A stretch of 31,090 bases of DNA, taken from Pseudomonadota bacterium. Its GTDB lineage: Bacteria > Pseudomonadota > Gammaproteobacteria > Burkholderiales > Burkholderiaceae_C. Location: positions 1 through 31,090 of the forward strand of contig JBEAWD010000191.1 in assembly GCA_041160585.1 (NCBI GenBank), written 5' to 3'. Shown here one piece after another: positions 3,649-29,017 of the stretch. A model generated the notes under the pieces. It saw only the letters and a program-made list of their open reading frames with translations, had not been told where the DNA came from and made no database searches. Numbering within the stretch: position 1 is the stretch's first letter; every line of letters starts with the position of its first letter. A program made the position numbers and the translations under genes.

Positions 3649-3735
3649 CGAGGTCACCGTTTGCGGATGGTATCCGTCGCATCGCCCAGGCACCGGCCCT
3701 TTGCAAGGAGAATGGAGATTCACTTCGAGAAGTCC

Positions 3736-7280: not shown

Positions 7281-8204
7281 TCATTCGGCACTCCACAATT
7301 CCCGAGCGCGATGTGCCGCGGCAAGGGAAGGTTCAATCTGCTTCAACTCCAAAGGGCAATCCTCGGGCAAGCCCGCGCGCACGCCCTGGCCCACCAGAGG
7401 GTGCAGCAACAGCACGCGCCCTGAGGCTACCACTGGCCTGGGCCCGAAGCGGCGATGCAGCACCGCACCCAAGCGGCCGATTTCCACACCGGCGCGCCGC
7501 AACAAGGAAGCGGCTTCAGCGTCACCCAAGTCAGCCGCTTCGGCCACTGCCAATGCCAGGCGGCCCACCTCGCCGCGCTCGCGGCCATAGATGAACTGCC
7601 GCGTGCTGGCCCAGTCGGTTCCGCCCATTCGCGCGAACAGGCAGCGCGCCATGGGGCTCTCCACCCACTGCCCAGGCCAGTCGTCCTCGCGCCGCCAGAT
7701 GGTGGCCAGGGCCTGCTTGGCGATCCAGTAGCCACCGCCTTCATCGCCCAACACAAAGCCGCGGCCACCGGCTCGGTGCCACACGCCCGCCTCGTCGATG
7801 TAGGAGGCGATCGAGCCGGTGCCCGCATACACCAGGTAGCCGCCACCGGGCTCATGCGCGGCGCGAAAGGCGATGTCCATGTCGCTGTGGCATTGGACGC
7901 AGGCCGCCGGTGCACACAGGGCGCGGGCCAACATCCCCGCCAGCTCCAAGGACGGTGCAGCCCGCGGTTCGCTCACACCGGTCACGCCTGCATACACGCC
8001 GCCCACCGTGCTGGGCGACAACTGCTGCGCAAGGGAAGATTGCAGTTCGTCCAGGGCCCGTGACAACTGCAGCCGACCCGCCGGGCTGGACAGGTTCATG
8101 CCGCTGAAACCCGTCACCTGCGCCTGCGCCTGGACCCGACCACCGGTGTCCACGGCCGTCCATCGGCACGCGGTGCCGCCGGCATCCAGCCCGATGAAGA
8201 TCAC
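7281..8204 (-). CDS. BadF/BadG/BcrA/BcrD-family N-acetylamino-sugar kinase (NagK- or MurK-like)
   Basis: IGLDAGGT phosphate-1 motif, SDMDIA, AGTGSI, RAGGRGFVLGDEGGGYWI. GTG 8204 overlaps the upstream stop (GTGA). Confidence 0.85.
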   Translation of the reverse strand: MIFIGLDAGGTACRWTAVDTGGRVQAQAQVTGFSGMNLSSPAGRLQLSRALDELQSSLAQQLSPSTVGGVYAGVTGVSEPRAAPSLELAGMLARALCAPAACVQCHSDMDIAFRAAHEPGGGYLVYAGTGSIASYIDEAGVWHRAGGRGFVLGDEGGGYWIAKQALATIWRREDDWPGQWVESPMARCLFARMGGTDWASTRQFIYGRERGEVGRLALAVAEAADLGDAEAASLLRRAGVEIGRLGAVLHRRFGPRPVVASGRVLLLHPLVGQGVRAGLPEDCPLELKQIEPSLAAAHRARELWSAE

Positions 8205-9355
8205 ACCTTGATGAACCATTGGCGGCGCGCCATGAACACGGCGACGGCATAGAAAACAAGGACGAAGCCCAAGGCGAACAGCAGCGACACCTGGACCGGT
8301 GGCAGCCCCGAATGATGCAAAGCGGCCACCACGTGGGCCTTCAAACTCGTACCACCCAACTGGGTGAAGGCCAGTGCCTTGGCCACCAAGCCCCCCAGCA
8401 CGAACAGGAACAGCGCATTCATGCCGAAGTCGACCAAGGGTTGCGCCCACGTCCGCCAACGCGCGCGGCTGACCGCATCGGCCTGAGCGTCGAGCAGCCA
8501 GTGAAAGGCGGCGAAGATCAACAGCGCCCACCCAGCGGTGCTGGCCACATAGGCCGGCGTCCAAAGCGATTTGTTGATCGGCATGTTCAGCACCGCCAGC
8601 ACCTCCCCGGCCCACAGCGAGAGCAGGCCGGCCAGAACCAGCCCCATGCAACGCAGGCCCGGCTCTTGGGCATGCGCCATCCAATGCCCGGCCAGCACAC
8701 CGGCCAAGAGCGTGGCCACCGCCGGCAGGGTGCTCAACAAACCCTCAGGGTCCCAGGTGCGTGACTTGGCCCACAGGTGTCCGCCCATCAGGGCGCGGTC
8801 GATCCAACTGCCCGTGTCCTGCCCGGCCAGCAGCGACCCCACCCGAATGACCCCATCGTCGCCAGGTACCGCAACCGCCAGCATCAGCACGCTGTACAGC
8901 ACCAGCAGGCCAGCACCCACCAGGGCCTGCCCGCGCCAGGCCAACCAAACCACCACCGGCGCACACAAGATGATGCACAGCCCGATGCGCTGCAGCACAC
9001 CAGGCCAGCGCAGCGTGTGCCAATCGAAGGCGGGAATTGCGTTGAGCATCACGCCAATGGCGATGATGATCAGGCCCCGACGCATCAGGCCCACACACAA
9101 GGCCAGCGGCTTCAATCCCAGGGCTTGCCGCCGCCCCAGGCTCAACGGCATGGCCATGCCACAGATGAACAGGAAGAAGGGAAAGACCCAATCCGTCACG
9201 GTCCAGCCGTGCCAAGGCGCGTGCAGCAAGGGTGCATACACGTGGCTCCAGTCGCCCGGATTGTTGACCAGGAGCATCGCGGCAATGGTCGCGCCGCGAA
9301 ATGCGTCCAGGCTCAACAGTCTTGCGTTGACGGCCACGCCGATGGAGTCACTCAT
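8201..9355 (-). CDS. nagX: NagX / heparan-alpha-glucosaminide N-acetyltransferase (HGSNAT)-like membrane protein
   Basis: RLLSLDAFRG, VNNPG, LHAPWHGWTVTDWVFPFF, GVLQRIG, DPEGLLS, PINKSLWT motifs; multiple TM segments. Confidence 0.8.
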   Translation of the reverse strand: MSDSIGVAVNARLLSLDAFRGATIAAMLLVNNPGDWSHVYAPLLHAPWHGWTVTDWVFPFFLFICGMAMPLSLGRRQALGLKPLALCVGLMRRGLIIIAIGVMLNAIPAFDWHTLRWPGVLQRIGLCIILCAPVVVWLAWRGQALVGAGLLVLYSVLMLAVAVPGDDGVIRVGSLLAGQDTGSWIDRALMGGHLWAKSRTWDPEGLLSTLPAVATLLAGVLAGHWMAHAQEPGLRCMGLVLAGLLSLWAGEVLAVLNMPINKSLWTPAYVASTAGWALLIFAAFHWLLDAQADAVSRARWRTWAQPLVDFGMNALFLFVLGGLVAKALAFTQLGGTSLKAHVVAALHHSGLPPVQVSLLFALGFVLVFYAVAVFMARRQWFIKV

Positions 9356-10644
9356 GCGGCCTCCGGTTCCTCAGCTTGTCGGCGCCCAAATCCCTCGGGT
9401 ACGCGAATGAGCGCGGTCATCAGGAAGGAGGGAATCGCCGCCACCATGACCCAGGTGAAGAAGCCGACATAGCCCAGTTGATCCTGCAGCCAACCGCTCC
9501 AGAATCCCGGCACCATCATGCCCAGCGCCATGAAGCCCGTACAGATCGCATAGTGGGCTGTCTTGTGCGCACCGTCGGCGATCAGGATCATCACCATCAG
9601 GTAGGCCGCAAAGCCCAAACCGTAGCCGAACTGCTCCACCGCCAAGGCGACGCTGACCACCCACAGCTGCTGCGGTGGCCACAGCGCCATCGCCAGAAAC
9701 ACCAGGTTGGGCAGGTGCATGACCCACACCAGGGGCCACAGGCAGGCCTTCAGGCCAAACCTGGCAATCAGCAGGCCTCCGACGATGCCGCCTACGGTCA
9801 GCGCGATCAATCCCACGGTGCCATAGGCCACACCCACTTCCCGGGTAGACAGGCCCAACCCCCCCGCCTCCACCGGGTCCAACAAAAATGGCGCAGCCAA
9901 CTTCAGCAGTTGCGCCTCGGGGAAGCGGTACAGCAGCAGGTAGGCGATGCCCACGGCGATGGCGGGCTTGCGAAAGAAAGTTCCCAACACACGGAAAAAG
10001 TCCACAAACAGCGTGGACTGCACTTGACCGGGCCGGTCATCGGCCGCGTGCGGGAGCCGCCAAGCGTGATAGGCCCCCACCACCAAGAAGAACACGGCCA
10101 GGCTGCCCATCACCACCTGCCAGGCCAGCACGGCCGAGCCACTTCGCTCAGCCACTTCGCCGGCCAGCACCACCAGCCCACCCTGCCCCGCGATATTGGC
10201 CAGGCGGTAGAAGGTGGAACGGATGCCCACGAAGGCGGCCTGTTGGTGTGTGGGCAGGGCCATCATGTAGTAGCCATCGGCTGCGATGTCGTGGCTGGCG
10301 CTGGCGAAGGCCATCAGCCACAGCAGGGCCAGGCTCCAGCGCAACCAGTTTTCCGCGGGCAAGCTCAAGGCCACCATGGCCACCAGCGCACCCACCGCGA
10401 ACTGCAGCATCCAAATCCAACGCCGTCGCGTGCCCAGCAATTCGATCAGGGGGCTCCACAGCGGCTTGATCACCCAGGGCAGATAAAGCCAACTCGTGTA
10501 CACCGCGATGTCGGTGTTGGACAGCCCCAGGTTCTTGAACATCACCACACTCAGGGACATGACCACCGCATAGGGCAAGCCCTGGAGCAGGTACAGGCTG
10601 GGCACCCACGCCCAGGGGCCGGATTCAGCCTTGAGCGTTGACAT
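9352..10644 (-). CDS. ampG: AmpG-like MFS transporter (muropeptide permease family)
   Basis: PSLYLLQGLPY, IKPLWSPLIE, SASHDIAADGYY, AHYAICTG; 12-TM MFS pattern. Family-level call; substrate not proven. Confidence 0.75.
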   Translation of the reverse strand: MSTLKAESGPWAWVPSLYLLQGLPYAVVMSLSVVMFKNLGLSNTDIAVYTSWLYLPWVIKPLWSPLIELLGTRRRWIWMLQFAVGALVAMVALSLPAENWLRWSLALLWLMAFASASHDIAADGYYMMALPTHQQAAFVGIRSTFYRLANIAGQGGLVVLAGEVAERSGSAVLAWQVVMGSLAVFFLVVGAYHAWRLPHAADDRPGQVQSTLFVDFFRVLGTFFRKPAIAVGIAYLLLYRFPEAQLLKLAAPFLLDPVEAGGLGLSTREVGVAYGTVGLIALTVGGIVGGLLIARFGLKACLWPLVWVMHLPNLVFLAMALWPPQQLWVVSVALAVEQFGYGLGFAAYLMVMILIADGAHKTAHYAICTGFMALGMMVPGFWSGWLQDQLGYVGFFTWVMVAAIPSFLMTALIRVPEGFGRRQAEEPEAA

Positions 10645-11815
10645 CGATCACCTCACCTTCGACCACCACCTGCCGCACCGCCAGCGTAGCCGGGTCCAGC
10701 ACCACCATATCGGCCCATGAGCCTTGCGCCAGCGTGCCGCGATCGTGCAAGCCCAGGTAACGGGCGGCGTTCGTGCTGACCCTTGCACAGGCCTGAGCCA
10801 CCGGCAGCCCGATCTGCACCAGGTTGCGCAGCGCCTGGTCCATGGTCAAAGCGCTGCCGGCCAAGGTGCCGTCGGGCAATCGCACTCCGCCCATGCACTT
10901 GTGCACGATGTGCTGCCCCAGGGGGTACTGCCCATCGGGCATGCCAGCCGCTGCGGTGGCGTCAGTCACCGCGAACAAGCCCGGCACCGCCCGCAAAGCC
11001 GCATGGATGGCACCCGGGTGCACATGCAGAAGATCCGGAATCAATTCGGCATGCTCGGCGTGGGCCAGCGCAGCCCCCACCGCGCCGGGTGCGCGGTGGT
11101 GCATCGGACCCATCGCGTTGAACAGATGGGTGAAGCCCGTGGCCCCCCGTTGCAGGGCCTGCAGCGCCTCTTCGTAGGTGGCGCGGGTATGGCCCACCTG
11201 CACACGAATACCGGCGGCCACCAACGGCGGAATCAGAGCCAAGTTGCCGGGCACCTCCGGCGCCAGCGTCAGCACGCGGATCGGCGCGATGGCGTGCAAG
11301 CGCATCACTTCTTCCAGAGTGGCTGGCTTGGCATACGAAGGTTGCGCCCCCAGTTGGTCTGGGCTGATGTAGGGGCCTTCCAGGTGGACGCCCAGGACAC
11401 GGGCGCACTGCGGATCACGTTCGATGCACTGGGGAGCCACGGCATGAAGCGCCGCCTCGATCTCGCGCACAGGCGCGGTCATCGTGGTGGCCAGCAAGGC
11501 GGTGGTGCCGTGCTGTGCGTGCACACGCGCCATGGCGGTGACGGCGCCACGGCCCTCCATGGTGTCGCGCCCACCACCGCCGTGAACATGGAGGTCGATG
11601 AAGCCGGGAACGATCAACGGCGGCGCGCCGGCGCTGCGACTCTCTTGCGCCACGGGCACGCCTTCCACTTTGGTCACACGGCCCGCGAGCCATTGGACGT
11701 GGCCATCCACCCAGCCGCCTGGGCCCAGAACCTGACCGTGCAGCGCCGCCGGTGGAGACTGGACGACATGCGTATCCGCATTGACACCCGATGGCTGACG
11801 GCGCGTGCTTTCCAT
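10625..11815 (-). CDS. nagA: N-acetylglucosamine-6-phosphate deacetylase
   Basis: PGFIDLHVHG, GVHLEGPY, GHT, THLFNAM, VTDA, LAGSALTM. Start uncertain (ATG 11815 or TTG 11833). Confidence 0.92.
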   Translation of the reverse strand: MESTRRQPSGVNADTHVVQSPPAALHGQVLGPGGWVDGHVQWLAGRVTKVEGVPVAQESRSAGAPPLIVPGFIDLHVHGGGGRDTMEGRGAVTAMARVHAQHGTTALLATTMTAPVREIEAALHAVAPQCIERDPQCARVLGVHLEGPYISPDQLGAQPSYAKPATLEEVMRLHAIAPIRVLTLAPEVPGNLALIPPLVAAGIRVQVGHTRATYEEALQALQRGATGFTHLFNAMGPMHHRAPGAVGAALAHAEHAELIPDLLHVHPGAIHAALRAVPGLFAVTDATAAAGMPDGQYPLGQHIVHKCMGGVRLPDGTLAGSALTMDQALRNLVQIGLPVAQACARVSTNAARYLGLHDRGTLAQGSWADMVVLDPATLAVRQVVVEGEVIDVNAQG

Positions 11816-11884
11816 CCGCAGATCATCGCTCAAAAGTCTGGCCCGGCTAGCGTCACCGCTGCCTACGCGCCAGATTGGATTAGA

Positions 11885-11906: not shown

Positions 11907-11950
11907 CCGACTGCCATCATCTATCCCCCCTAAGCTTCAACCCAACGCCC

Positions 11951-12994
11951 ATGCGCGAAGCCGGTACGCGCCAACGCGCCCACCTCTGGTTGTCCACCCT
12001 GGTTGCGCCGTACTTGGGCGCCGGCAGGCGGGACTTCAGTTTCCGCCTCTACGAGGGCGAGGGAATCACGCGCACGGGCGAGGGAATGATGTTTCTGTCG
12101 CCCGCACGTGGCGAAGTGATCGGCATCAGCCCCGAGTTCATTGCGCTGCGAACCGGCGAAACCCGCTTCGACGTGATCACCATCCAGTTCATGGAGCAGC
12201 CCCTGCTGATGGGCCAGCGGGTGAAGCTGCGCTACTACGACATGCGTCGCTTCGACGGTTCGCGCGTGAGCGCCGATCTCGAGTTGGAAAGCGAGTCCCA
12301 AGGCGCGTCCTCGGTCGCCGATGTGCTGCGCGTGCGCTTTCCCATCACCTGGCCGGGTCGGGCGCTGCCGCCGCCCATGCGGCGAATGGCGGCAACGATG
12401 CAGGTGGCCCAATCGCGCGCCTTGATGACGCTGGTCGAACTGATGGAGTCGCAGATGTGCGACACCTTGCGCAATGTACCCAGCCTGCTGGTGGACGCGG
12501 GCGCCCGGCAAGTGCACGTGCGCGAGGTGCCGGAGGAAGTGCTGTTTGGCAAGCCGGTCCAAGGCTCCAGCGTGGCCACCCTCAGCGTCACGGTTCGCAC
12601 CCGGCGCTTTGCCGGCACCGTTGAGTTGGAGTTCGACGCCGTCAGCGGCACCTTCTGCGTGAAGCTCGGCACCAGCGGGGGCCGAGGCTCTGGTCAGCTG
12701 TTTGAGAACCTGCAACCCAGCGGGGTGGCCAAGGTGTTGACCGAGCGGGTGGACGATGGCCGCTGGCGTCTGGTGCACACCGAACCGACGGACGATGCGC
12801 TGCCTGCGGCGGCTGCACGGCAACCGACCCAAGCAAGCCAATCGACTCGGTCGCGACAAGCGCCCCCCGCGCGACCCTCGACGCGTCGCTGGCAGTCGTC
12901 TTGGATGCTGTTGGTGTTGCTGGGGGCCATTGCCCTCGTGTTCTACGCCACCGACGGCGCCGGCCTGTTCCGTTTGTTGGGGCACAAGACCTGA
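11951..12994 (+). CDS. Uncharacterised protein with a C-terminal low-complexity linker and single TM helix
   Basis: 347 aa from ATG 11951 in the 10724..12994 frame. Protein-like composition; tail WMLLVLLGAIALVFYA. Core motifs RRFDG, LLVDAGAR, FAGTV, VDDGRWR. Confidence 0.7.
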   Translation: MREAGTRQRAHLWLSTLVAPYLGAGRRDFSFRLYEGEGITRTGEGMMFLSPARGEVIGISPEFIALRTGETRFDVITIQFMEQPLLMGQRVKLRYYDMRRFDGSRVSADLELESESQGASSVADVLRVRFPITWPGRALPPPMRRMAATMQVAQSRALMTLVELMESQMCDTLRNVPSLLVDAGARQVHVREVPEEVLFGKPVQGSSVATLSVTVRTRRFAGTVELEFDAVSGTFCVKLGTSGGRGSGQLFENLQPSGVAKVLTERVDDGRWRLVHTEPTDDALPAAAARQPTQASQSTRSRQAPPARPSTRRWQSSWMLLVLLGAIALVFYATDGAGLFRLLGHKT

Positions 12995-13046
12995 GCGCTC
13001 GCTGGCCGGTATGGGGCCAGATTTCTCACCGGCTCAGGGGCGTTCC

Positions 13047-13052
13047 TATACT
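13047..13052 (+). promoter_or_regulatory. Candidate sigma70 -10 hexamer for the spmAB/serine hydrolase pair
   Basis: TATACT about 27 nt upstream of ATG 13080 in otherwise GC-rich DNA. Confidence 0.4.
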
Positions 13053-13079: not shown

Positions 13080-14327
13080 ATGGCCCTGAACTTTATCTGG
13101 ATCGGCTTCATCCTTATCGGCTTCGCCGTGGCCGCGGTGAAGGTGATGATGGGCCAGACCGCGCTCTTCGGTCAGATGCTCACCGGCCTGTTCGACATGG
13201 CCAAGACGGGCTTCGACATCTCGCTGGGTCTGGTGGGCGTGATGACGCTGTGGTTGGGCATCATGAAGATCGGCGAGCAGGCCGGTGTCATCGAGGTGTT
13301 CGCGCGCGGTGTGGCGCCCTTCTTCCGCCGCATCTTCCCGGGAATCCCTGACGGACACCCAGCCAGCGGCAGCATCACCATGAACGCCTCGGCCAATATG
13401 CTGGGCTTGGACAACGCGGCCACGCCCCTGGGCCTGAAGGCCATGCGGGAGTTGCAGGAGATCAACCCGGACAAGTCGACCGCCTCGGATCCGATGATCA
13501 TGTTCCTGGTGCTCAACACGGCCGGCATCACCCTGATTCCCACTTCGGTGATCGCCATCCGCCAGAGCCTGGCGGTGGAACAAGGCCTGACGAACTTCAA
13601 CGGCGCCGACATCTTCCTGCCCACCCTGATCGGTACCTTCATCTCCTTCGTGGCCGGCTTGCTGGCGGTGGCCTGGGTGCAGCGCATCAACCTGCTGTGC
13701 GCACCGGTGGTGGCCTTCTTCGGAGGCTTTGCGGCGCTGATGGGTGCGCTGTACCTGTGGCTCAACGGCCTGCCCGCTGCCGAGATGAGCAAGGCCATCG
13801 CCGTGCTGGGCAGCGGCGTCATCCTGAGCATCATCGTGCTGTTCGTGGCAGTGGGCGCGGTGCGGCGCATCAACGTGTACGAGGCCTTCGTGGACGGTGC
13901 CAAGGAAGGCTTCGGCGTGGCGGTGCAGATCATTCCCTACCTGGTGGCCATGTTGGCGGCGATTTCGGTGTTCCGCAGCAGTGGCTGCATGGACTACCTG
14001 GTGCAGGCGATCGGGGCGGGTGTGCGTGCACTGGGGCTGGACGACCAGTTTGTGCCCGCGCTGCCGGTGGGCCTGATGAAGACCATGTCGGGCAGCGGCG
14101 CGCGCGGCCTGATGGTCGATGTGCTCAAGACCTACGGCGTCGACTCCTTCGAAGGGCGGCTGGCCAGCATCATCCAAGGCTCCACCGAAACCACCTTCTA
14201 TGTGCTGGCGGTCTACTTCGGCAGCGTGGGCATCAAGAAGACGCGCCACGCCCTGGGCTGCGCACTGACGGCCGATGCGGTGGGGCTGATCGGCGCCATC
14301 CTGGTGGGATACGCCTTCTATGGCTGA
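13080..14327 (+). CDS. SpmA/SpmB fusion, nucleoside-recognition (Gate) domain membrane protein
   Basis: MALNFIW, LWLGIMKIGE, SANMLGLDNAATPLGLKAM (SpmA half); VYEAFVDGAKEG, SGSGARG, GSTETTFYVLAVYFG (SpmB half). Confidence 0.88.
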   Translation: MALNFIWIGFILIGFAVAAVKVMMGQTALFGQMLTGLFDMAKTGFDISLGLVGVMTLWLGIMKIGEQAGVIEVFARGVAPFFRRIFPGIPDGHPASGSITMNASANMLGLDNAATPLGLKAMRELQEINPDKSTASDPMIMFLVLNTAGITLIPTSVIAIRQSLAVEQGLTNFNGADIFLPTLIGTFISFVAGLLAVAWVQRINLLCAPVVAFFGGFAALMGALYLWLNGLPAAEMSKAIAVLGSGVILSIIVLFVAVGAVRRINVYEAFVDGAKEGFGVAVQIIPYLVAMLAAISVFRSSGCMDYLVQAIGAGVRALGLDDQFVPALPVGLMKTMSGSGARGLMVDVLKTYGVDSFEGRLASIIQGSTETTFYVLAVYFGSVGIKKTRHALGCALTADAVGLIGAILVGYAFYG

Positions 14328-15549
14328 ACGAGGCTTCACCCATGCCGAACTGGCCGCGGCACTGCGCGAAGCCCTGAGGGCCAGCCTCGCCCAAGCGCCT
14401 GCCTTCGACCCCCCGCCCACGCTGGACTTGGCGGTGGTGGCCTTCCCGCATGGCGCGCCGCCCGTGTGGGCCAACGTGCTGGTCACGCGCGGCCACCTCG
14501 AAGGCGTGGTGGCCCGCATCGGTGCTGATGCCGGCCCGGTGCAGGACATCCGTTACCTCGTGGATCCAAGCGACGAACAAAGGCGATCGATCGCCTGGCA
14601 GCCCGGCGCCGATTGGACACGCCTGCAAGGCTTGCGTACGCTGCAGGGCAGTGGTCCCTTCGAATCGATCGCCCCATACCCCGCCTCACTCATCAAGCTG
14701 ATGGTGGCCGTGGGCGTGGGCCTGCTGGTGGACCAGGGCCAGGCCGATTGGAACGAGACCTGGGCCTGGAGCGGAACCACACGACCGGTCGTCGAGTGGG
14801 CCGACCGCATGATCACCGAAAGCCGCAACGACGACACCAGCGCCCTGGTGGCCTTGCTCCATGCGCGGGGACTCATCGAGCGCAATGCCGCTGGACAGGA
14901 AGTGCGCAACGGCCTGCACGAAGCCTTCACCGCCGCGGGCCTTTCCACCCTTCGCCTGGCCAATACCCGGGCCGACGGCGGCTGGCTCAACCGCGATGGT
15001 GCGGGCGTGGGACACCTACAGATGACCGCCTGGGACACGGTGCGCCTGCTGTGGCTGATGCTGCCCGCGGTGATGCCCGATGTCCTGCCACCCCCCTGGT
15101 TGCCGGCTTCCCACCGTCCCCTGATGCGGCCCGCGGCGGCCGCACCGATCTGGCGGCTGCTCGATGAGCAGGCCCTGCACGAGGCGCTGTCGACGTCCAT
15201 CGCAGTCGGGATGCCCGGTTGGCGCGCCGGGATCCCGGCCGAGGTGCCCGAGCGCTGGATACAAGGCGATGGCCGTGTGAAGGCGGCCGATCGCGCCTGG
15301 CCAGGAGACGTGAGGTCTGTCCAGCGCCAAGCCACGGTGCGATTTGCCCACAAGACAGGAACCACGGAGAACTACCTGTCGGACGCCGGGCTGGTGCGCG
15401 GTCGCGCTCCCGGTGGGCGCCGCTACCTGGTGGCGCTGCTCAGCACCTTGGGGTCACGGCATGCGCCGCATCCAAACCTGGCCACCGACTGGTGCATCGC
15501 CGACCTCGGCGCACGCATCGACCGTTGGCTGGCCGACCGACTGGGCTGA
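14320..15549 (+). CDS. Class A beta-lactamase-like serine hydrolase (PBP/beta-lactamase fold), no signal peptide
   Basis: SxxK (PASLIK), SxN (SRN), KTG (HKTGTT). Start overlaps the spmAB stop by 8 nt. Confidence 0.8.
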   Translation: MAERGFTHAELAAALREALRASLAQAPAFDPPPTLDLAVVAFPHGAPPVWANVLVTRGHLEGVVARIGADAGPVQDIRYLVDPSDEQRRSIAWQPGADWTRLQGLRTLQGSGPFESIAPYPASLIKLMVAVGVGLLVDQGQADWNETWAWSGTTRPVVEWADRMITESRNDDTSALVALLHARGLIERNAAGQEVRNGLHEAFTAAGLSTLRLANTRADGGWLNRDGAGVGHLQMTAWDTVRLLWLMLPAVMPDVLPPPWLPASHRPLMRPAAAAPIWRLLDEQALHEALSTSIAVGMPGWRAGIPAEVPERWIQGDGRVKAADRAWPGDVRSVQRQATVRFAHKTGTTENYLSDAGLVRGRAPGGRRYLVALLSTLGSRHAPHPNLATDWCIADLGARIDRWLADRLG

Positions 15550-15688: not shown

Positions 15689-15707
15689 CCATAACCTTGA
15701 CTTATGG
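15689..15707. promoter_or_regulatory. LysR-type recognition box upstream of the TonB-dependent receptor
   Basis: CCATAA-CCTTGAC-TTATGG, a perfect 6-bp dyad containing T-N11-A. A near-copy lies at 27985-28003. Confidence 0.65.
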
Positions 15708-15816: not shown

Positions 15817-18693
15817 ATGAAACTCAAGCCCATCGTCCAGGCTCTCGCAGCACTCAGCCTGATTTCCCCGGTCTTGGCCCAACAGACCAACCCCCAGCAA
15901 CAGAAGGTGGAGGTCACCGGCTCAAGCATCAAGCGCCTGTCCAATGAAGGGTCCCTGCCCCTGCAGGTGATCACGCGTTCGGAAATCGAGCAGCAGGGTC
16001 TGACCAGCGCCGAACAGGTGGTGCTGTGGCTGTCCACGAACGGCAACGGCCTGGACAACCTGGCCTCCAACGCCGACGTGGTGGGCGGTGCGCAGCGCGG
16101 CAACAACGGCGCCACCAGTGCGAACCTGCGTGGCCAGGGCAGCAACGCGACCCTGATCCTGCTCAACGGTCGGCGCGTGGCGTCTCACGGCCTGAACGGC
16201 GGCGTGGTCGACCTCAACCAGATCCCGATGGCGGCCATCCAGCGCATTGAAGTGCTCAAGGACGGCGCCAGTTCCATTTATGGCACGGACGCCATCGGCG
16301 GGGTGATCAACTTCATCCTGCGCAACGACTATCAGGGCGCCGCGGTCCAAGGCTCGGCCGATGTCACCCAAGCCGGCGGCGGCAACGTCTACCGCAGCTC
16401 GATAGTGGCGGGCACGGGCGATCTCAACCGCGACAAGTTCAACATCATGGCCACCCTGGCGGTGCGTGAACACCAGGTGCTCCGCGGCGATCAGCGCGAC
16501 TTCGTCAACACCTTCCAGCCCAACCGGGGCCTCAGCGTAGACACGCGTGGCACACCCCACGCCACCATCTTCCCCTTGGCCGGCACGCTGTTCCCCACGA
16601 ATGCCTCGACGCCGCTGATTCCTGGCAGCACCACGGTACGGGCCTCCGGTGGCCTGAACGTGCTGGACCTGCCGGGCGCCGAAGGTTGCGGTGCGATCGC
16701 CGGGCAAGCGCCCTATGACGCGTTGCTGTGGAACGTACCCACGGCCGCCCTGTCCTGCGCCTGGGACACCGGACGCGCCGCGGTGCTTCAGCAACCGGTG
16801 AGCGACACCAGCCTGGTGACGCGCGGCACCTTCCGCCTGGGTGACCACCAGATTGCTGCCGAGTTCGTCGGCAGCCAGACGGATTCCGCCAAGCGCTTCT
16901 CGCACGTCCAGCTCACGCCGAACACCACCACGCAGCAGTTGCGCTTCCCGCGCAATGCGGCCTCTCAGGCAGCCTATGACGCGGTGTTCAACCGCCTGCT
17001 GGCGGCCTTCCCGGGTCAGATCACGGAAACCCAGCGGGGCCAACCCCTGGCCTACCGTTGGCGCTGCATCGAATGCGGCCCGCGCGAACTGGAGACCGAA
17101 GCCTCCACGCGGCGCTGGGCCATCATGGCCGACGGTCCCCTGGGTGGCGGCTGGGAGTACCGCGCCGGCCTGATCCAGGCCTCCAGCGAAGCCAAGTCCC
17201 GCCTGGGCACCGGCTACTACTACCGTGGCACGACCGCTACCGGCGCCTCTGATGGTGGCGCGGGCATCATCCCGGCCCTCAACAGCGGACGCATCAACCC
17301 CTTCCTGCTGCCCGGCCAAACGCAAAGCGCCGACGGCCTGGCGGCCCTGCAGGAAGCCTCGGCCGAGGGCGTGGTGCTCTACGGCGGACGCTTCTCGATG
17401 CAGCAGATCGACTTCTCGGCCTCGGGCCCCGTGGCCAAGTTGCCCGGTGGCGACATCATGGCGGCCGTTGGCGCGGACATGCGCACCGAGCGCTACCGCT
17501 TCAATGGCGACGAGCGTGACCTGGCCGCGCAACGCGTGATCGTGGCCGCGCCTTTCGACCAATCCAACGTCCTGCTGGGCGCCAAGCGTGAAGTGAAGGC
17601 CCTCTACGGTGAAGTGCTGCTGCCCATCACCAAGAGCTTCGAGGCCACCCTGTCGGTGCGCCGCGACGACTATTCCGGCTTCGGCGCCACCACCAACCCC
17701 AAGGCGTCGGCACGCTGGAAGCCGAGCCAGCAGTGGTTGGGCCGCGGCTCCTACAGCACCGGATTCCGGGTACCCACCTTCAACCAGTTGTACAACGGCG
17801 CAGCCGAATCCATCTTCACCGGCACCACCCTGGTCGACCCCAAGACCTGCCCGGCAGGCCGACCCAACACCACGGATCCAGGCTGCGCGTTCATCGACCG
17901 CGCCGCCAACATCATCAACGGCGGCAAGCCTGACCTGGGCCCTGAAGAGGCCAAGATGAGTTCGCTGGGCATGGTGTGGGAGCCCATGAACAACCTGAGC
18001 ATGAGCCTGGACTGGTGGAGCATCCGCCGCGAGGGCACGATCCAGATCCTGTCCCTCACGCAGCTCATCGACAACTACAACCTCTTCCCCGACCGTTTCA
18101 TCCGTGACGCAGCTGGCAAGCTGATCGCCGTCGATCAGCGCTGGGTCAACGCCGGCGAGACCGAAACCTCGGGCCTGGAGTTCTCGCTGCGCAACGGCTT
18201 CACCGCCATGGATGCCCGCTGGACAGCGGGCCTGGACGGCACCTATCTGCTCAAGAAGCGCTCACGCGTGGTGTCCTCGGCTGCCTGGGGCCCGAGCGAA
18301 GTGGGCCAGTTCACCTTCGCCGGTGACCTCGGATTGAGCTGGAAACACAATGCCTTCATCAGCCGGTCGAAGGGCTCGTGGATCACCACGCTGTCACAGG
18401 TGTTCCGCAGCGGCTACAACAACCAGGTGCTGCCCGGTGTGGCTGCTGGCGCGGTCACGCCGCCCGACCTCAAGACCAAGGTGGATCCCTACACCACCTA
18501 CAACCTGGCCATGACCTACACCGGCATCAAGAACCTGCGCTTGACCGGCATGGTGCGCAACCTGTTCGACCGCGATCCGCCGTTTGCCATCACCTACGAC
18601 AGCAACTTCGGTTCGGGCAGTTCCTGGGAACCCCGCGTGGCTGACCCGCGTGGTCGCGCCTTCATGCTGAGCCTGGACTACCGGTTCCGCTGA
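15817..18693 (+). CDS. TonB-dependent outer-membrane receptor
   Basis: Signal peptide, VEVTGSSIKR TonB-box region, plug motifs (ANLRGQG, TLILLNGRR, IQRIEVLKDGASSIYGTDAIGGVINFI), barrel motifs (GFRVPT, NLFDRDPP, LDYRF). AGGAG RBS. Confidence 0.95.
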   Translation: MKLKPIVQALAALSLISPVLAQQTNPQQQKVEVTGSSIKRLSNEGSLPLQVITRSEIEQQGLTSAEQVVLWLSTNGNGLDNLASNADVVGGAQRGNNGATSANLRGQGSNATLILLNGRRVASHGLNGGVVDLNQIPMAAIQRIEVLKDGASSIYGTDAIGGVINFILRNDYQGAAVQGSADVTQAGGGNVYRSSIVAGTGDLNRDKFNIMATLAVREHQVLRGDQRDFVNTFQPNRGLSVDTRGTPHATIFPLAGTLFPTNASTPLIPGSTTVRASGGLNVLDLPGAEGCGAIAGQAPYDALLWNVPTAALSCAWDTGRAAVLQQPVSDTSLVTRGTFRLGDHQIAAEFVGSQTDSAKRFSHVQLTPNTTTQQLRFPRNAASQAAYDAVFNRLLAAFPGQITETQRGQPLAYRWRCIECGPRELETEASTRRWAIMADGPLGGGWEYRAGLIQASSEAKSRLGTGYYYRGTTATGASDGGAGIIPALNSGRINPFLLPGQTQSADGLAALQEASAEGVVLYGGRFSMQQIDFSASGPVAKLPGGDIMAAVGADMRTERYRFNGDERDLAAQRVIVAAPFDQSNVLLGAKREVKALYGEVLLPITKSFEATLSVRRDDYSGFGATTNPKASARWKPSQQWLGRGSYSTGFRVPTFNQLYNGAAESIFTGTTLVDPKTCPAGRPNTTDPGCAFIDRAANIINGGKPDLGPEEAKMSSLGMVWEPMNNLSMSLDWWSIRREGTIQILSLTQLIDNYNLFPDRFIRDAAGKLIAVDQRWVNAGETETSGLEFSLRNGFTAMDARWTAGLDGTYLLKKRSRVVSSAAWGPSEVGQFTFAGDLGLSWKHNAFISRSKGSWITTLSQVFRSGYNNQVLPGVAAGAVTPPDLKTKVDPYTTYNLAMTYTGIKNLRLTGMVRNLFDRDPPFAITYDSNFGSGSSWEPRVADPRGRAFMLSLDYRFR

Positions 18694-18700
18694 TACTGCG

Positions 18701-19687
18701 GTGAGGCTGCGGCACCTCGAGGTCTTCCATGCCGTGATGCGCGCAGGCACCGTCAGCGGTGCCGCGCGCCTTCTGCACATTTCCCAACCTGCGGTCACCA
18801 AGGTGCTGCAGCATGCCGAGGCCCAATTGGGCCTCGCGCTGTTTGAACGGGTGCGCGGCAAGTTCTATCCGACGCCAGAGGCGCAGCGCCTGTTCACCGA
18901 AGTCGACCGTCTGCATGCGGAACTCGTGTCGATCCGCCGCCTGGCAGCCAATTTGAAGGCCGGTCCCCAGCAACGCGTGCGACTGTCGGCCACGCCCGCC
19001 TTGGGCGCGACCGTGGTCCCCACTGCAGTGGCACGGTGGGCCCAGCTGTTTGCCGACGGCCACTGCGAACTCGCCACCCACCACACGCGAGAGCTGGTAC
19101 AGGCACTGGTGCTGTCCGAGCTTGATCTCGGCTTCGCCCTGCACGATCCCCATCACCCCGGTGTCTATGCCGAGGTGTTGACCCAGGCGCCGATGATGGC
19201 GCTGGTCCCCGCGCGCGGAGCGGCCCTGCGCGCGCGTTCTGCGCTGAGCCTGGATGCACTGCCCGCGGCCGTGATCGGCTTGGCCCCCTCCGACCCGCTG
19301 GGCATGCGCATCACGGCCGAGTACGAGGCACGAGGTCTGACCCTGCATCCGATGGTCTCGGTGCAAACCTATCAACTGGCTCGGCAATTGGCCGAGGCCG
19401 GCGCCGGCGCGGCCATCGTGGACCCCTTCACGGCCGCCAGTGCCGACCGTGACCGGGTGGCCGTGCGGCCCCTGGAGCCAACCATCCTGGTGCCCCTGGT
19501 GCTGCTCACGCCGGTGTCGGCCCCGCTGTCGCAAGCCGCGCGGCGCCTGGTTCAGGAGGTTCGCGAATCGGCCAGCGCCTGCCTGGCCCGCGCCGGTGTC
19601 CAAGAGTACGAGCCCTCGACACAGCCTCCGATGTCGGGGGCTCTGCCGGTGAAGGCGGCCACGCGTCGGCGGGCTCGCAGCAAGTGA
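18701..19687 (+). CDS. LysR-family transcriptional regulator
   Basis: MRLRHLEVFHAVMRAGTVSGAARLLHISQPAVTK HTH followed by a substrate-binding domain. GTG start 7 nt after the receptor stop. Confidence 0.93.
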   Translation: MRLRHLEVFHAVMRAGTVSGAARLLHISQPAVTKVLQHAEAQLGLALFERVRGKFYPTPEAQRLFTEVDRLHAELVSIRRLAANLKAGPQQRVRLSATPALGATVVPTAVARWAQLFADGHCELATHHTRELVQALVLSELDLGFALHDPHHPGVYAEVLTQAPMMALVPARGAALRARSALSLDALPAAVIGLAPSDPLGMRITAEYEARGLTLHPMVSVQTYQLARQLAEAGAGAAIVDPFTAASADRDRVAVRPLEPTILVPLVLLTPVSAPLSQAARRLVQEVRESASACLARAGVQEYEPSTQPPMSGALPVKAATRRRARSK

Positions 19688-20310
19688 GTGCGGCCATGCA
19701 CCCCGCAGCGATTTCCTGCGAGTCGGTCGCCGATCACCCCGACTTCGTCCACCTGTCGACGCTGACGGAAATCGCGGTGAACATCCGCTATGCCGGCACA
19801 AACAACTTCAGCGGGCGTTGCCTGTACCCGAATCTGGACTGCGCCTGGCTGCGAAGACCGGCGGCCATGGGCTTGCAACGCGCGGCTCGATGGCTTGATG
19901 CCCATCGGCCAGGCTACCGGCTGCTGGTGCTGGACGCACTGCGTCCTCAGCGTGTGCAGGAGGCCATCTGGCGCCAGATTCAACATACGCCCATGGCCGC
20001 CTATTTCGCCGACCCGGTGCGCGGCTCGATCCACTCCTTCGGCATGGCGGTGGACGTGACCTTGCTCGATCCGCAGGGACGCGAGTGCGACATGGGCAGC
20101 GGCTTTGACGAGATGAGCGAGTTGTCGCATCCGGCCTTGGAATCGCAACACCTGGCCATGGGCCGCCTGAGTGCGGATCATCTGCGCGAGCGGGGTTGGC
20201 TGTATGCGGCGATGGCAGCCGGCGGATTTCAGGGGATCACCACCGAGTGGTGGCACTTCGATCAAGGTGACCGTGAACAGGTGCGAAGGGAATTGCAGCG
20301 TGTGGCGTGA
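19684..20310 (+). CDS. ddpX: D-alanyl-D-alanine dipeptidase (M15D, VanX/DdpX family)
   Basis: DALRP, SIHSFGMAVDVTL (SxHxxGxAxD), DMGSGFDE, EWWHF. No signal peptide. Confidence 0.9.
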   Translation: MSAAMHPAAISCESVADHPDFVHLSTLTEIAVNIRYAGTNNFSGRCLYPNLDCAWLRRPAAMGLQRAARWLDAHRPGYRLLVLDALRPQRVQEAIWRQIQHTPMAAYFADPVRGSIHSFGMAVDVTLLDPQGRECDMGSGFDEMSELSHPALESQHLAMGRLSADHLRERGWLYAAMAAGGFQGITTEWWHFDQGDREQVRRELQRVA

Positions 20311-21427
20311 ATCGATTCAATCTCCCCATCGGCGTCGGATGCTGACGGCAGCAGCAGGCGTGATGGTCGGTGCGGCCACCGTGATCAGCTCGCGGGCATG
20401 GGCGCAGGCGCCGATCGTCGGTGCCGCTGCGGGCGGCGGATCCAATACCGCACCGCTGCGGGCACTTCAGCCGCCGCGCCCGCTGATCAAGCCGCCTCGG
20501 CTTCAGCCTGGCCAGACCATCGGCCTGGTGGCCCCATCCGGCGCCGTACCCGAGCGCCTACCCCTGGAGATCGCCCATGACACGCTGACCGCCTTGGGCT
20601 TCAAGGTCAAGGAAAGCCCGCAACTGCGTGCGCGCCGTGGTCACTTCGCCGGTACCGATGAGCAGAGGGCCGCAGGCCTGAACGCGATGTTTGCCGATCC
20701 GGACGTGCAGGGCGTACTGGCCATCACCGGTGGCTCGGGTGCCAATCGGATCCTGCCTCTGTTGGACTACGCGCAGTTGCGCCGCACGCCAAAGTTTGTC
20801 GGCGGTTTTTCCGACATCACGGCCTTGCTGCATGCCGTGCACAGCCAAACCGGCTTGGTCACCTACCACTGCCCGGCCGGGGTGTCGGAGTGGAATGAAT
20901 TCAGCTGGCGCCACTTCAGGGGTGTGGCGATGGAGGGCACGCCCGTGCTGATGCGAAACGAGGCCGACAAGGGTTCGCTGCCCGCCCCGCGCGAGGACCG
21001 TACCCAGACGATCAGGCCAGGCCTGGCGCGCGGCCCTCTGTTGGGCGGGAACTTGGCGGTGTTGTCCTCGCTGTGCGGCTCGCCCTACCTTCGCTCCTTC
21101 GACGGCGCGATCCTCTTCCTTGAGGAAATCAACGAGTACATCTACCGGGTGGACCGCATGCTGTCCACACTGAAGTTGTCCGGTGTGCTGGACCGTGTGG
21201 CCGGCGTGATGATCGGCGCCTTCACCAACTGCAAGCCCGGCGAGGGGTTCTGGACCTTGACGCTCGACGAGGTGTTCGAGGATTACTTCGGTGGCTTGGG
21301 CGTGCCGGTGTACCGCGGCGCCTCGTTCGGCCACATCAAGCGCAAGTTCACCTTGCCCTTGGGCGTGCAGGCCGAGATCGACGCCAACGCCGGCACCGTG
21401 CGGCTGCTGGAGTCCGCTGTGGCCTGA
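20300..21427 (+). CDS. ldcA: LD-carboxypeptidase (S66) with a twin-arginine-like signal
   Basis: IGLVAPSG, GFSDIT (Ser), LFLEEINE (Glu), FGH (His). N-terminus HRRRMLTAAAGVMVGAA...AWAQ. Start placed at GTG 20300 after GAAGGGA. Confidence 0.88.
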   Translation: MWRESIQSPHRRRMLTAAAGVMVGAATVISSRAWAQAPIVGAAAGGGSNTAPLRALQPPRPLIKPPRLQPGQTIGLVAPSGAVPERLPLEIAHDTLTALGFKVKESPQLRARRGHFAGTDEQRAAGLNAMFADPDVQGVLAITGGSGANRILPLLDYAQLRRTPKFVGGFSDITALLHAVHSQTGLVTYHCPAGVSEWNEFSWRHFRGVAMEGTPVLMRNEADKGSLPAPREDRTQTIRPGLARGPLLGGNLAVLSSLCGSPYLRSFDGAILFLEEINEYIYRVDRMLSTLKLSGVLDRVAGVMIGAFTNCKPGEGFWTLTLDEVFEDYFGGLGVPVYRGASFGHIKRKFTLPLGVQAEIDANAGTVRLLESAVA

Positions 21428-21464: not shown

Positions 21465-23144
21465 CTAACGCGCGGCTGCAGCCGCGCCGCCCGCAGCCAC
21501 CCAATCGGCCACCGCATCCAACACCGGTCGACCGCGGCGGGGTGCTTCGTCGTGGTTGACCATGGCCGCCATCACCCACCGGCGCCCCTGTGCATCCTCC
21601 ACATAGCCGGCCAGGGCCACCACATTGCGCAGTGTGCCGGGCTTCAGGCGCGCACGGCCGCGCGCGGGCGTGTCGGTCATGCGACTGCGCAGTGAGCCAT
21701 CCACGCCGGCCACCGGCAGGCTCATCATCAGCTCGCTGGAAAACAGCTGGCCGTGAGCAGCCTGCAGCACCATCGCCAATTGGCGCGGGGTGATGCGCTC
21801 GCTGCGCGACAAGCCCGAGCCGTTGTCCATCACCAAACCCTCCAAGGGTATGCCGTGCTGCGTGAACCAACGCCGCACTGACGCATCGGCCCAGTCTCGT
21901 GTGCTGCGATCGGGCGCCGCGGCCGCGCCAGCTGTACCTTGCGCGCGCTTTTGTTCTTCAAGCCCCGTGAGCAGATACAGCACGCGCGTGGCCACGTTGT
22001 CCGAGGTCTTGTTCAAGGGCCGCAGCCACTCGCCCCAAGGGCGTGCCTCACGACGGGCGATCAGGCGCGTGGCCTGGCCCGCGGGCGGCTGGGCGTTGGC
22101 CGCAGCCTCCGGCACCCCATTGAGCGCGGTGCTGGTGTAGGCGAATTCGCCCGGGGCCGCCTCCCTCACTCGCCCGTTCCATTGACCACCCAACTCGTTC
22201 CACACCCAACGCAGTTGCGCCTGTGCCTGCAGGTTGCGCTCCATGAGCTGCAGGGCCGGACGCTGTGTGCAGTCGGTGGGGTATCGACCCTGCAGGCGCA
22301 CGACGACCGTGCCCTCACGGTCTTGCTCAAAGGTCGGCGTGATCCATCCGGCGGTGCTCCAATCCCGACAGGCCACCGAACCCGGGGCGTGCAGGGTCAG
22401 CCGGTTGTCCACACGCACGCCGGGCAGCTCAGGCCGCAGCTTGGCAACCACCTGCTGGCGGTCGGACACCAGCTCCAGCCCGTGCAGGTTGCCGCTGAGT
22501 TGGAGCGCGTCCGGGATCACGTTGTAGGGAAACTCGGGGGACTCATCGAATGGCGGCACACCAAGGTCCAGACGCGCCGGTTGGAACAGATGGCGGTCCA
22601 ACACGATGTTGCCGTCAATGTGCCGCACGCCGGCTTCTCTCAGTTCCAGCATCAAGGCCCACAACTGCGGAAGGCCCAGTTCCAGATCGGCACCGCCGCG
22701 CAGCAGCAGATCGCCCTTGAGCCGTCCCCCTTCGATGGGTGCGGCGGTTCGCAACTCGGTGTAGCCGCGCAGGTTCGGGCCCACGCGGTCCAGCGCCACC
22801 GCACTCGTGACCACTTTCATGGCTGAGGCGGGCTGCATGGACCGATCGGCCTGGTGCAGCCAGCCCGATGAAGGGGCTGAGCCCAGCGCCACACCACCGC
22901 CTACGGCCTGGCCGGAATGCCCCAAGGGCAAGACCGCCACAGCCAGGGTCGATGGGTCGAGGCCGGCCTTGTCCAGGGCTGCCCTCACCGACGCTGGAAA
23001 GGCGGGCGGCGTTGGCCCCTGGTGGGCACACCCCGCCAGGGCCAGCAGGCACGCAAAGCCCCAAACGGCCCGTGACTTGGGCCATCGGCGCTGGGTCGGG
23101 TGGCCTGCGCTGAGGCCGCTGCGGATCGAATCGATGGATTGCAT
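21465..23144 (-). CDS. dacB: D-Ala-D-Ala carboxypeptidase/endopeptidase PBP4 (S13), lipoprotein; third motif reads KPG
   Basis: Lipobox LAGC, PASAMK (SxxK), SDN, DNGSGLSR, LPVAGVDG, KPGT. ATG 23144 is preceded by TATGAT-N6. Confidence 0.88.
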   Translation of the reverse strand: MQSIDSIRSGLSAGHPTQRRWPKSRAVWGFACLLALAGCAHQGPTPPAFPASVRAALDKAGLDPSTLAVAVLPLGHSGQAVGGGVALGSAPSSGWLHQADRSMQPASAMKVVTSAVALDRVGPNLRGYTELRTAAPIEGGRLKGDLLLRGGADLELGLPQLWALMLELREAGVRHIDGNIVLDRHLFQPARLDLGVPPFDESPEFPYNVIPDALQLSGNLHGLELVSDRQQVVAKLRPELPGVRVDNRLTLHAPGSVACRDWSTAGWITPTFEQDREGTVVVRLQGRYPTDCTQRPALQLMERNLQAQAQLRWVWNELGGQWNGRVREAAPGEFAYTSTALNGVPEAAANAQPPAGQATRLIARREARPWGEWLRPLNKTSDNVATRVLYLLTGLEEQKRAQGTAGAAAAPDRSTRDWADASVRRWFTQHGIPLEGLVMDNGSGLSRSERITPRQLAMVLQAAHGQLFSSELMMSLPVAGVDGSLRSRMTDTPARGRARLKPGTLRNVVALAGYVEDAQGRRWVMAAMVNHDEAPRRGRPVLDAVADWVAAGGAAAAAR

Positions 23145-23283
23145 GCGCCCATCATAAGTAGACGTTGCCGATACACGGGCCATGCCTTGCGGTAATGGAT
23201 GGCATTGAAGTTGGCATCCAGCCCGAACGCATCAGGGCTGCAGCGGGTGTGTGGGCGCCCGGGGCCGGCGCACAATAGCGCGC

Positions 23284-25757: not shown

Positions 25758-25782
25758 CGCTGCGCCTGCGGCACGCGGTCAC

Positions 25783-27984: not shown

Positions 27985-28003
27985 CCATAACCAGCGGTCA
28001 TGC
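27985..28003. promoter_or_regulatory. Second LysR-type box, about 64 bp upstream of the D-amino acid dehydrogenase start
   Basis: CCATAA-CCAGCGG-TCATGC shares GCCATAACC and T-N11-A spacing with the 15689 box. Confidence 0.55.
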
Positions 28004-29007: not shown

Positions 29008-29017
29008 GCGCCCATTG

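What the first reader, a model, noticed from the sequence alone, without database searches (positions are those of the whole stretch)
13080..15549. SpmA/SpmB fusion coupled to a cytoplasmic penicillin-recognising hydrolase
Seen: fused SpmAB overlaps by 8 nt a signal-less SxxK/SxN/KTG protein, inside a PG catabolic locus of a non-sporulating Gram-negative-type genome. Established: in Bacillus subtilis spmA and spmB are co-transcribed with a DD-carboxypeptidase gene (PBP5*), affect spore cortex/dehydration, and have no defined transport substrate. Inference: the repeated pairing with D-Ala-processing enzymes suggests SpmAB moves stem peptides or D-amino acids, and the partner trims them in the cytoplasm.
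Basis: partly seen in the sequence, partly recalled or inferred. Interest (0 to 1): 0.65.

Follow-up and report, generated by a model that had tools for sequence, protein, structure and literature searches.

The report
Spore-protein transporter in cell-wall-eating locus
A freshwater bacterium keeps a membrane protein of long-unknown function (SpmA/SpmB) inside a gene cluster for digesting bacterial cell walls; it has a transporter fold and relatives sit beside wall-peptide enzymes in several lineages, so it probably imports small wall fragments, but its pairing with the neighbouring enzyme is a local accident, not a conserved partnership.

Summary
Both genes are real: a fused SpmA-SpmB (415 aa) overlapping by 8 nt a signal-less SxxK/SxN/KTG protein (409 aa), inside a 28-kb peptidoglycan-catabolic locus of a Burkholderiales genome. 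The claimed coupling is not conserved. The two genes lie together only in this genus-level clade (6 of 80 nearest loci, 1 of 14 family genomes with the hydrolase), and the overlap itself varies. The hydrolase is a rare cytoplasmic PBP-A-like enzyme whose stable partner is a DguA-like D-amino-acid dehydrogenase (11 of 14), often with an LdcA paralogue. The broader idea holds better. SpmAB models as an elevator-type secondary transporter. Most spmAB genes stand alone, but separate clades sit beside wall enzymes: PBP4 (18 of 30 loci in a sister family that lacks the hydrolase), amidase, ampG, nagA-murQ, and dacB in Bacillota. Best reading (0.45): SpmAB imports D-alanine or a short D-amino-acid peptide released from the wall; the hydrolase trims stem peptides in the cytoplasm independently of it. 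No substrate or penicillin binding was shown. The scan noted SpmAB beside wall-salvage genes four times before on other DNA.

The parts
13080..14327 (+). fused spmA-spmB, 415 aa, two Gate domains, elevator-type transporter fold
14320..15549 (+). cytoplasmic PBP-A/class-A-fold serine hydrolase, 409 aa, no signal peptide
14686..14697 (+). codons of the S123-x-x-K126 motif
   Evidence: invariant in 82 of 82
14821..14829 (+). codons of the S168-x-N170 motif
   Evidence: 81 of 82
15352..15360 (+). codons of the K345-T-G motif
   Evidence: 81-82 of 82
13023..13052 (+). weak sigma-70-like promoter match upstream of spmAB (9 of 12; not above chance)
   Evidence: 1 found, 0.4 expected
15690..15707 (.). 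palindromic DguR-type box upstream of the receptor; a second at 27986-28002; none upstream of spmAB
15817..18693 (+). TonB-dependent receptor of the PG module
18701..19687 (+). LysR regulator, DguR-like
19684..20310 (+). DdpX-like D-Ala-D-Ala dipeptidase (M15)
20171..21427 (+). LdcA LD-carboxypeptidase (S66); ORF bounds, true start further in
21465..23183 (-). PBP4-type DD-peptidase (S13); ORF bounds
23251..24141 (+). Amidase_2 + PG-binding domain (AmiD/AmpD-like); ORF bounds
24138..25757 (+). GHL10 glycan hydrolase
25432..26679 (+). MurQ etherase; ORF bounds, true start further in
26683..27930 (-). D-amino-acid dehydrogenase, DguA-like; the hydrolase's usual upstream partner in other genera
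28036..29061 (-). AstE/AspA-like metallopeptidase; ORF bounds
10625..11833 (-). NagA, divergent from spmAB
9352..10644 (-). AmpG-like MFS permease (below the AmpG cut-off)
8201..9355 (-). NagX-like membrane protein
7281..8684 (-). NagK-like amino-sugar kinase; ORF bounds
4786..6249 (-). sodium:solute symporter, a second candidate importer
11930..12994 (+). orphan ORF inserted between nagA and spmAB; absent from L001-L080

Best explanation
The window is an island for eating peptidoglycan. Exported glycan hydrolases, an amidase and a PBP4 cut the wall; a TonB receptor brings fragments in; sugars go through an AmpG-like permease, kinase, MurQ, NagA and NagB; peptides are trimmed by LdcA, DdpX and an AstE-like peptidase, and D-amino acids are oxidised by a DguA-like dehydrogenase (gene identities shown by family scans; the route is inferred). 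SpmAB is an ion-coupled elevator-type inner-membrane transporter (fold predicted; transport inferred) that most likely imports a small D-amino-acid product of wall trimming: D-alanine, D-Ala-D-Ala or a short stem fragment (inferred from neighbours only). It is an accessory gene of such loci, moved in and out in several lineages with changing partners. The SxxK protein is a cytoplasmic serine acyl-enzyme peptidase that cleaves after a D-residue in stem peptides and feeds the dehydrogenase (motifs and location shown; substrate inferred). In this clade it was separated from the dehydrogenase gene and came to lie behind spmAB, so the two probably share a transcript and a pathway but are not a dedicated pair.
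For: Fold: the 13 best VIA-align hits are all elevator transporters (ArsB Z 11.5, rmsd 5.8, 316 aligned; CNT Z 11.3, rmsd 4.5, 266 aligned; also DASS, AbgT/YdaH, TRAP-M), the next row is Z 6.4 over 65 residues (model pLDDT 92.6). Context: spmAB directly upstream of PBP4 in 18 of 30 loci of sister family f2, in the homologous locus; all 21 f2 genomes with the locus-type PBP4 have spmAB against 13 of the other 80 (kin, not independent). Other placements: PBP4-amidase-spmAB (L013), nagA-murQ (L074/76/80; G123), ampG-spmAB (L224), amidase overlapping spmAB (L254), Legionella amidase-like and M23 flanks, Brevibacillus dacB-spmA-spmB. One clade rejected. Chance level 0.4-1.7% per position in this genome. 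Distant E. coli relatives YjiH/YjiG precede isoaspartyl dipeptidase. Hydrolase: dehydrogenase directly upstream in 11 of 14, LdcA paralogue directly downstream in 6 of 14; one co-directional murQ-GHL10-dehydrogenase-hydrolase-SBP5-lysR-ddpX-ldcA run in Chitinimonas without spmAB; nearest structure PBP-A (Z 24, rmsd 2.7), a proven DD-peptidase (PMC11189452).
Against: Most spmAB genes have no PG neighbour: 1 of 60 surveyed Pseudomonadota loci lay in a PG module, no PG family among the 25 commonest neighbours, Bacteroidales copies sit by ruvB, ybeY or a flippase. The genome already has AmpG, Mpl, an Opp-type ABC system and two other permeases in the locus. The module exists without any spmAB match in 9 of 14 hydrolase-bearing genomes. 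The DguR-type box is not upstream of spmAB. Z near 11 for a helical protein is within the range the tool calls ambiguous, and the fold does not name a substrate. The Bacillus phenotype is core dehydration with unknown mechanism.
Confidence: 0.45

Rival explanations
1. One reading: SpmAB and the SxxK hydrolase are a dedicated importer-trimmer pair; SpmAB brings in whole stem peptides and hands them to the hydrolase.
For: 8-nt overlap and same strand here; adjacency kept in 5 of the 6 closest relatives; both belong with PG catabolism.
Against: Adjacent in 1 of 14 family genomes (same genus); co-occurrence 5 of 14 against 3.6 expected from 39 of 150; hydrolase in 0 of 101 f2 genomes where spmAB is in the locus; spmAB in 91 of 400 and hydrolase in 1 of 400 phylum genomes; overlap varies and one relative has an agmatinase gene between them.
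Confidence: 0.1
2. SpmAB transports something else that wall turnover needs or produces: an amino sugar or MurNAc-derived D-lactate, or an ion or small solute that controls envelope hydration. Its link with the wall is real but not through D-amino-acid peptides.
For: Divergent from nagA in three lineages; structural neighbours carry nucleosides, carboxylates, sialic acid and oxyanions; Bacillus and Clostridium phenotype is core water content.
Against: The tightest, co-directional partners are peptide-cutting enzymes (PBP4, DacB, amidases); sugars already have AmpG-like and SSS permeases in the locus.
Confidence: 0.25
3. SpmAB has a function unrelated to the wall and the PG neighbourhoods are chance plus inheritance in a few clades.
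For: About nine in ten surveyed neighbourhoods are unrelated; the window was chosen for the association; no DguR box upstream.
Against: Six or seven separate placements against roughly one to three expected (the number of distinct neighbourhoods, about 150, is my estimate), several co-directional or overlapping, plus the Bacillota dacB operon.
Confidence: 0.2

Closest known systems
Bacillus subtilis / Clostridium SpmA and SpmB (dacB-spmA-spmB; Pfam Gate PF07670)
   Same: 45% and 43% identity of the two halves to Brevibacillus SpmA and SpmB; neighbourhood with DD-peptidases; no known substrate.
   Different: Fused into one chain; non-sporulating host; neighbour here is a cytoplasmic class-A-fold enzyme, and in the sister family an S13 PBP4, not the S11-type DacB.
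Thermosynechococcus PBP-A (PDB 2j7v; PMC11189452) and class A beta-lactamases
   Same: Best sequence-profile and structure match (E 4e-4; Z 24); SxxK, SxN, KTG.
   Different: About 20% identity; about 160 extra residues in insertions; no export signal; no conserved Glu in the omega-loop stretch (Arg/Gln/Lys at the position in register with E166).
E. coli YjiH-YjiG-IadA operon
   Same: Split, distant Gate-family relatives (profile E 5e-6 and 3e-15) co-encoded with a dipeptidase.
   Different: Distant subfamily; partner acts on isoaspartyl dipeptides; function of YjiG also unknown (PMC13311989).
Elevator transporters: CNT, DASS (VcINDY), AbgT/YdaH, TRAP-M, ArsB
   Same: Predicted fold (Z 7.4-11.5 over 266-337 residues).
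   Different: 8-14% identity, no sequence match in PDB; substrate and coupling ion unknown.
Pseudomonas dguRABC D-Glu utilisation locus (pmid 25082951, cited in PMC10926688)
   Same: Window dehydrogenase is 52% identical to a LysR-dehydrogenase-RidA-SBP locus against 38% to the dadA type; window LysR 45-46% to its regulator; shared box.

Membership tests
SpmA/SpmB family | sequence homology of N-half to SpmA and C-half to SpmB | tested here: met
   45% and 43% to Brevibacillus proteins; profile E 2e-80 and 5e-68
SpmA/SpmB family | two Gate domains (PF07670) | tested here: met
SpmA/SpmB family | role in spore core dehydration | tested here: inconclusive
   host is a Burkholderiales bacterium; SpoIVA not found in a 92%-complete genome; phenotype not testable
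Elevator-type secondary transporters (IT/CNT) | scaffold plus transport-domain fold | tested here: met
   13 best structural hits all of this kind, Z up to 11.5, rmsd 4.5-7.6; moderate Z
Elevator-type secondary transporters (IT/CNT) | ion-coupled transport of a defined substrate | not testable with these tools
   needs uptake assay
Penicillin-recognising serine hydrolases (PBP/beta-lactamase fold) | SxxK, SxN and KTG motifs in order on the transpeptidase fold | tested here: met
Penicillin-recognising serine hydrolases (PBP/beta-lactamase fold) | acylation by penicillin | not testable with these tools
   needs Bocillin labelling
Class A beta-lactamase | omega-loop Glu166/Asn170 deacylation pair | tested here: not met
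   no Glu among the common residues of columns 208-240; Arg 55, Gln 11, Lys 10 of 82 at the position in register (register by motif, not by coordinates)
Class A beta-lactamase | export signal | tested here: not met
   none in query; 7 of 120 homologues above hydropathy 2.0, none with Tat or lipobox
PBP-A (cyanobacterial DD-peptidase) | closest structural neighbour | tested here: inconclusive
   top hit but tied within 1 Z unit with class A enzymes; 20% identity
PBP-A (cyanobacterial DD-peptidase) | DD-carboxy/endopeptidase activity on amidated muropeptides | not testable with these tools
   activity known for PBP-A only (PMC11189452)
Conserved SpmAB-hydrolase two-gene module | adjacency or co-occurrence beyond one clade | tested here: not met

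The most novel reading that the evidence does not exclude
SpmA/SpmB is an unrecognised family of D-alanine or D-amino-acid-dipeptide importers that clears products of DD-peptidase action, which would explain the 30-year-old spore phenotype; and the cytoplasmic SxxK family supplies a missing step of stem-peptide breakdown (possibly cutting gamma-D-Glu-mDAP, since MpaA and the Ala-Glu epimerase were not found in this genome) that delivers D-Glu to a DguA-like dehydrogenase.
Probability: 0.3. Interest if true: 0.8.

Novelty: new variant of a known kind. Interest (0 to 1): 0.5.

Why it matters
SpmA and SpmB are conserved in nearly all endospore formers and needed for spore heat resistance, yet their biochemical action is unknown. 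A transporter fold plus repeated placement beside wall-peptide enzymes turns this into a short list of substrates to test, and the sister-family spmAB-PBP4 operon offers non-sporulating hosts with a growth read-out. Separately, the hydrolase marks an unstudied cytoplasmic PBP-like family in a pathway by which aquatic bacteria feed on cell-wall debris. The specific two-gene coupling that was flagged is of little general weight.

Tried and rejected
Conserved SpmAB-hydrolase module: rejected. Fusion as a novelty: rejected, nearly all 91 phylum matches are single ORFs. Plain class A beta-lactamase: rejected on omega loop, signal and context. Rosetta-stone fusions among long SpmAB homologues gave Kelch and lamin-tail domains, no PG enzyme. 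Single-sequence PDB searches found nothing useful; Foldseek gave no SpmAB hit under E 0.001; the Atlas searches returned only the same families. RNA runs: X1 and X3 cover the whole stretch evenly in long contigs, as DNA would; X6 and X9 hold short pieces of both genes; no contig shows a joint transcript. Promoter and terminator matches are at chance level. Literature searches found no paper linking SpmAB to transport or PG recycling; the primary Bacillus, Clostridium and dgu papers are not held. L033 (ldcA 2.6 kb away, opposite strand) and CobD/AmpE-like neighbours (L312, L320, L321) were not counted as support. MpaA and YcjG not found in G000 or G058; genomes 92% and 99% complete. No complex prediction was run, as no binding is claimed.

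Full report
Observation. The first has two Gate domains; its halves match Brevibacillus SpmA (45%) and SpmB (43%). The second has a weak Beta-lactamase2 hit (E 7e-7), and S123xxK126, S168xN170 and K345TG are kept in 81-82 of 82 homologues. It has no leader: low N-terminal hydropathy, and the model (pLDDT 96) aligns with mature PBP-A from residue 5. Relatives are freshwater Burkholderiales.

The locus. Family scans give GHL10-NAGPA, NagB-II, an SSS permease, a ureohydrolase, NagK-like, NagX-like, AmpG-like MFS, NagA, then the pair, then a TonB receptor, LysR, DdpX, LdcA, PBP4 (S13), amidase, GHL10, MurQ, a D-amino-acid dehydrogenase and an AstE/AspA-like peptidase. The dehydrogenase and the LysR match a LysR-dehydrogenase-RidA-SBP locus of family f13 (52% and 45%) better than the dadA type (38%). 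That gene order is what I recall for Pseudomonas dguRABC; DguR's role in D-Glu catabolism is stated in PMC10926688. A palindromic box lies before the receptor and the dehydrogenase and in that f13 locus, but not before spmAB.

Is the pair conserved? No. Among the 80 closest spmAB loci the hydrolase is near in only the six at 93% identity or more; most of the others carry unrelated neighbours. The junction varies: same overlap in L002, 3-nt gap in L001, about 40 nt in L004 and L006, an inverted agmatinase between the genes in L005. In 150 family genomes the hydrolase is in 14 and spmAB in 39; both in 5 (3.6 expected), adjacent in 1, which is the same genus. In 400 phylum genomes spmAB is in 91 and the hydrolase in 1. 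In sister family f2, spmAB is in 34 of 101 and the hydrolase in none.

The hydrolase. Its stable neighbour is the dehydrogenase, directly upstream in 11 of 14 genomes, with an LdcA paralogue directly downstream in 6, a receptor within the stretch in 11 and PBP4 in 8. Chitinimonas has murQ, GHL10, dehydrogenase, hydrolase, SBP5, lysR, ddpX, ldcA and the AstE-like gene in one direction, without spmAB; a metagenome contig repeats dehydrogenase-hydrolase-ldcA. The best solved relative is PBP-A by profile (E 4e-4) and by structure (Z 24, rmsd 2.7, tied with class A enzymes). PBP-A is a DD-carboxy/endopeptidase (PMC11189452). The omega-loop stretch has no conserved Glu, so a class A lactamase is unlikely. 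Inference: a cytoplasmic enzyme that is acylated by a D-residue of a stem peptide. A D-Ala-X cut as in PBP-A is the simplest (about 0.5). A gamma-D-Glu-mDAP cut is a real alternative (about 0.25), because the partner dehydrogenase looks D-Glu-type and MpaA and YcjG were not found, though the AstE-like enzyme could fill that step.

SpmAB. The model (pLDDT 92.6) matches only elevator transporters among its 13 best hits (ArsB, CNT, Pho90, YdaH, TRAP-M, DASS; Z 7.4-11.5; same families by Foldseek). Conserved polar residues cluster at helix breaks (N102, N106, 109-116, 146-147, 337-340, 367-374, D399), as expected for a binding site; this is inference. Z near 11 is moderate for a helical protein and names no substrate.

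Do PG genes gather near spmAB? In a minority, repeatedly. Against: 1 of 60 surveyed Pseudomonadota loci lies in a PG module, no PG family is among the commonest neighbours, and 80 metagenome loci are dominated by ruvB, ybeY and a flippase, with four f2-type loci and one amidase. For: in f2, spmAB lies directly upstream of PBP4 in 18 of 30 loci, within the same receptor-LdcA-DdpX-LysR-amidase-kinase-GHL10 locus; all 21 genomes with that PBP4 have spmAB, against 13 of 80 others. These counts include unpublished genome G623; without it they are 17 of 29 and 20 of 20. Further cases: PBP4-amidase-spmAB (L013); nagA-murQ-GHL10 beside spmAB (L074, L076, L080; G123); true ampG then spmAB; an amidase whose stop overlaps the spmAB start; Legionella spmA-spmB between an amidase-like and an M23 gene; dacB-spmA-spmB in Brevibacillus. 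On trees the PG label needs 7-8 changes and one clade is rejected (p-AU 7e-42; rows were subsampled, unrooted, so gain and loss cannot be told apart; the G123 copy falls inside the f2 clade). A random position in this genome lies within 3 kb of such a gene 0.4-1.7% of the time. Six or seven placements among roughly 150 distinct neighbourhoods (my estimate) is above the one to three expected, but the sample began from a positive case. E. coli YjiH/YjiG, distant relatives, precede a dipeptidase.

Mechanism. Shown: gene identities, fusion, motifs, lack of signal, neighbourhood counts. Predicted: both folds. Inferred: SpmAB takes up a small product of wall trimming, most likely D-Ala or a D-amino-acid dipeptide, since its tightest partners release these and the larger fragments already have AmpG, an Opp-type ABC system and Mpl in this genome. 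The hydrolase works further down the same catabolic route, beside the dehydrogenase. Their overlap here is best read as the result of a local rearrangement.

Known or new. SpmAB is a plain member of a known family whose activity is still open; no paper found proposes a transport substrate. The hydrolase family is unstudied as far as found. This scan reported SpmAB in wall-salvage clusters four times on other genomes and a similar hydrolase once; these are unchecked notes and not counted as evidence. Verdict: real features, headline coupling not general, underlying hypothesis plausible and testable; interest 0.5.

Noticed in passing
L121:7557-9170, L210, L215, L222 (family f2): An orphan family-5 peptide-binding protein gene lies divergent from spmAB-PBP4 in 14 of 30 f2 loci, with no ABC permease in the stretch; since SpmAB has a TRAP-M-like fold, a binding-protein-assisted mode is worth a test. 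In the window's genome related SBP5 genes lie elsewhere, one with Opp-type permeases (contig C135).
   Followed up: partly
window 11930-12994: Orphan ORF with no Pfam or NCBIfam hit, inserted between nagA and spmAB; no match in the 80 related loci, where nagA and spmAB are often directly divergent.
   Followed up: partly
window 26683-27930 and 18701-19687; L322: Dehydrogenase and LysR resemble a dguA/dguR-type pair; shared palindromic box at 15690-15707 and 27986-28002.
   Followed up: yes
window 6290-7249; L001, L005, L076, L080: An agmatinase-like ureohydrolase travels with the PG locus and moves around within it, once landing between spmAB and the hydrolase.
   Followed up: no
L100:14945-15877, L108:4529-5461: Ornithine cyclodeaminase/mu-crystallin-family gene between receptor and PBP4 in two genera; may handle a downstream imino acid from D-amino-acid oxidation.
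   Followed up: no
L235, L267, L294, L302, L306, L311, L315, L319: Bacteroidales spmAB is often co-directional with a polysaccharide/oligosaccharide flippase and an S46 peptidase.
   Followed up: no
P0171, P0203, P0168: SpmAB fused to Kelch-repeat propellers or a lamin-tail domain in some long homologues.
   Followed up: no
L312, L320, L321: CobD/AmpE-like membrane protein gene directly upstream of spmAB, same strand.
   Followed up: partly
window 28036-29061; L219, L334, L328, L098, L104, L107: An AstE/AspA-like metallopeptidase recurs in these loci, sometimes beside spmAB or the hydrolase; candidate MpaA substitute.
   Followed up: partly
window 1195-3753: GHL10 fused to a NAGPA phosphodiester glycosidase domain.
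   Followed up: no
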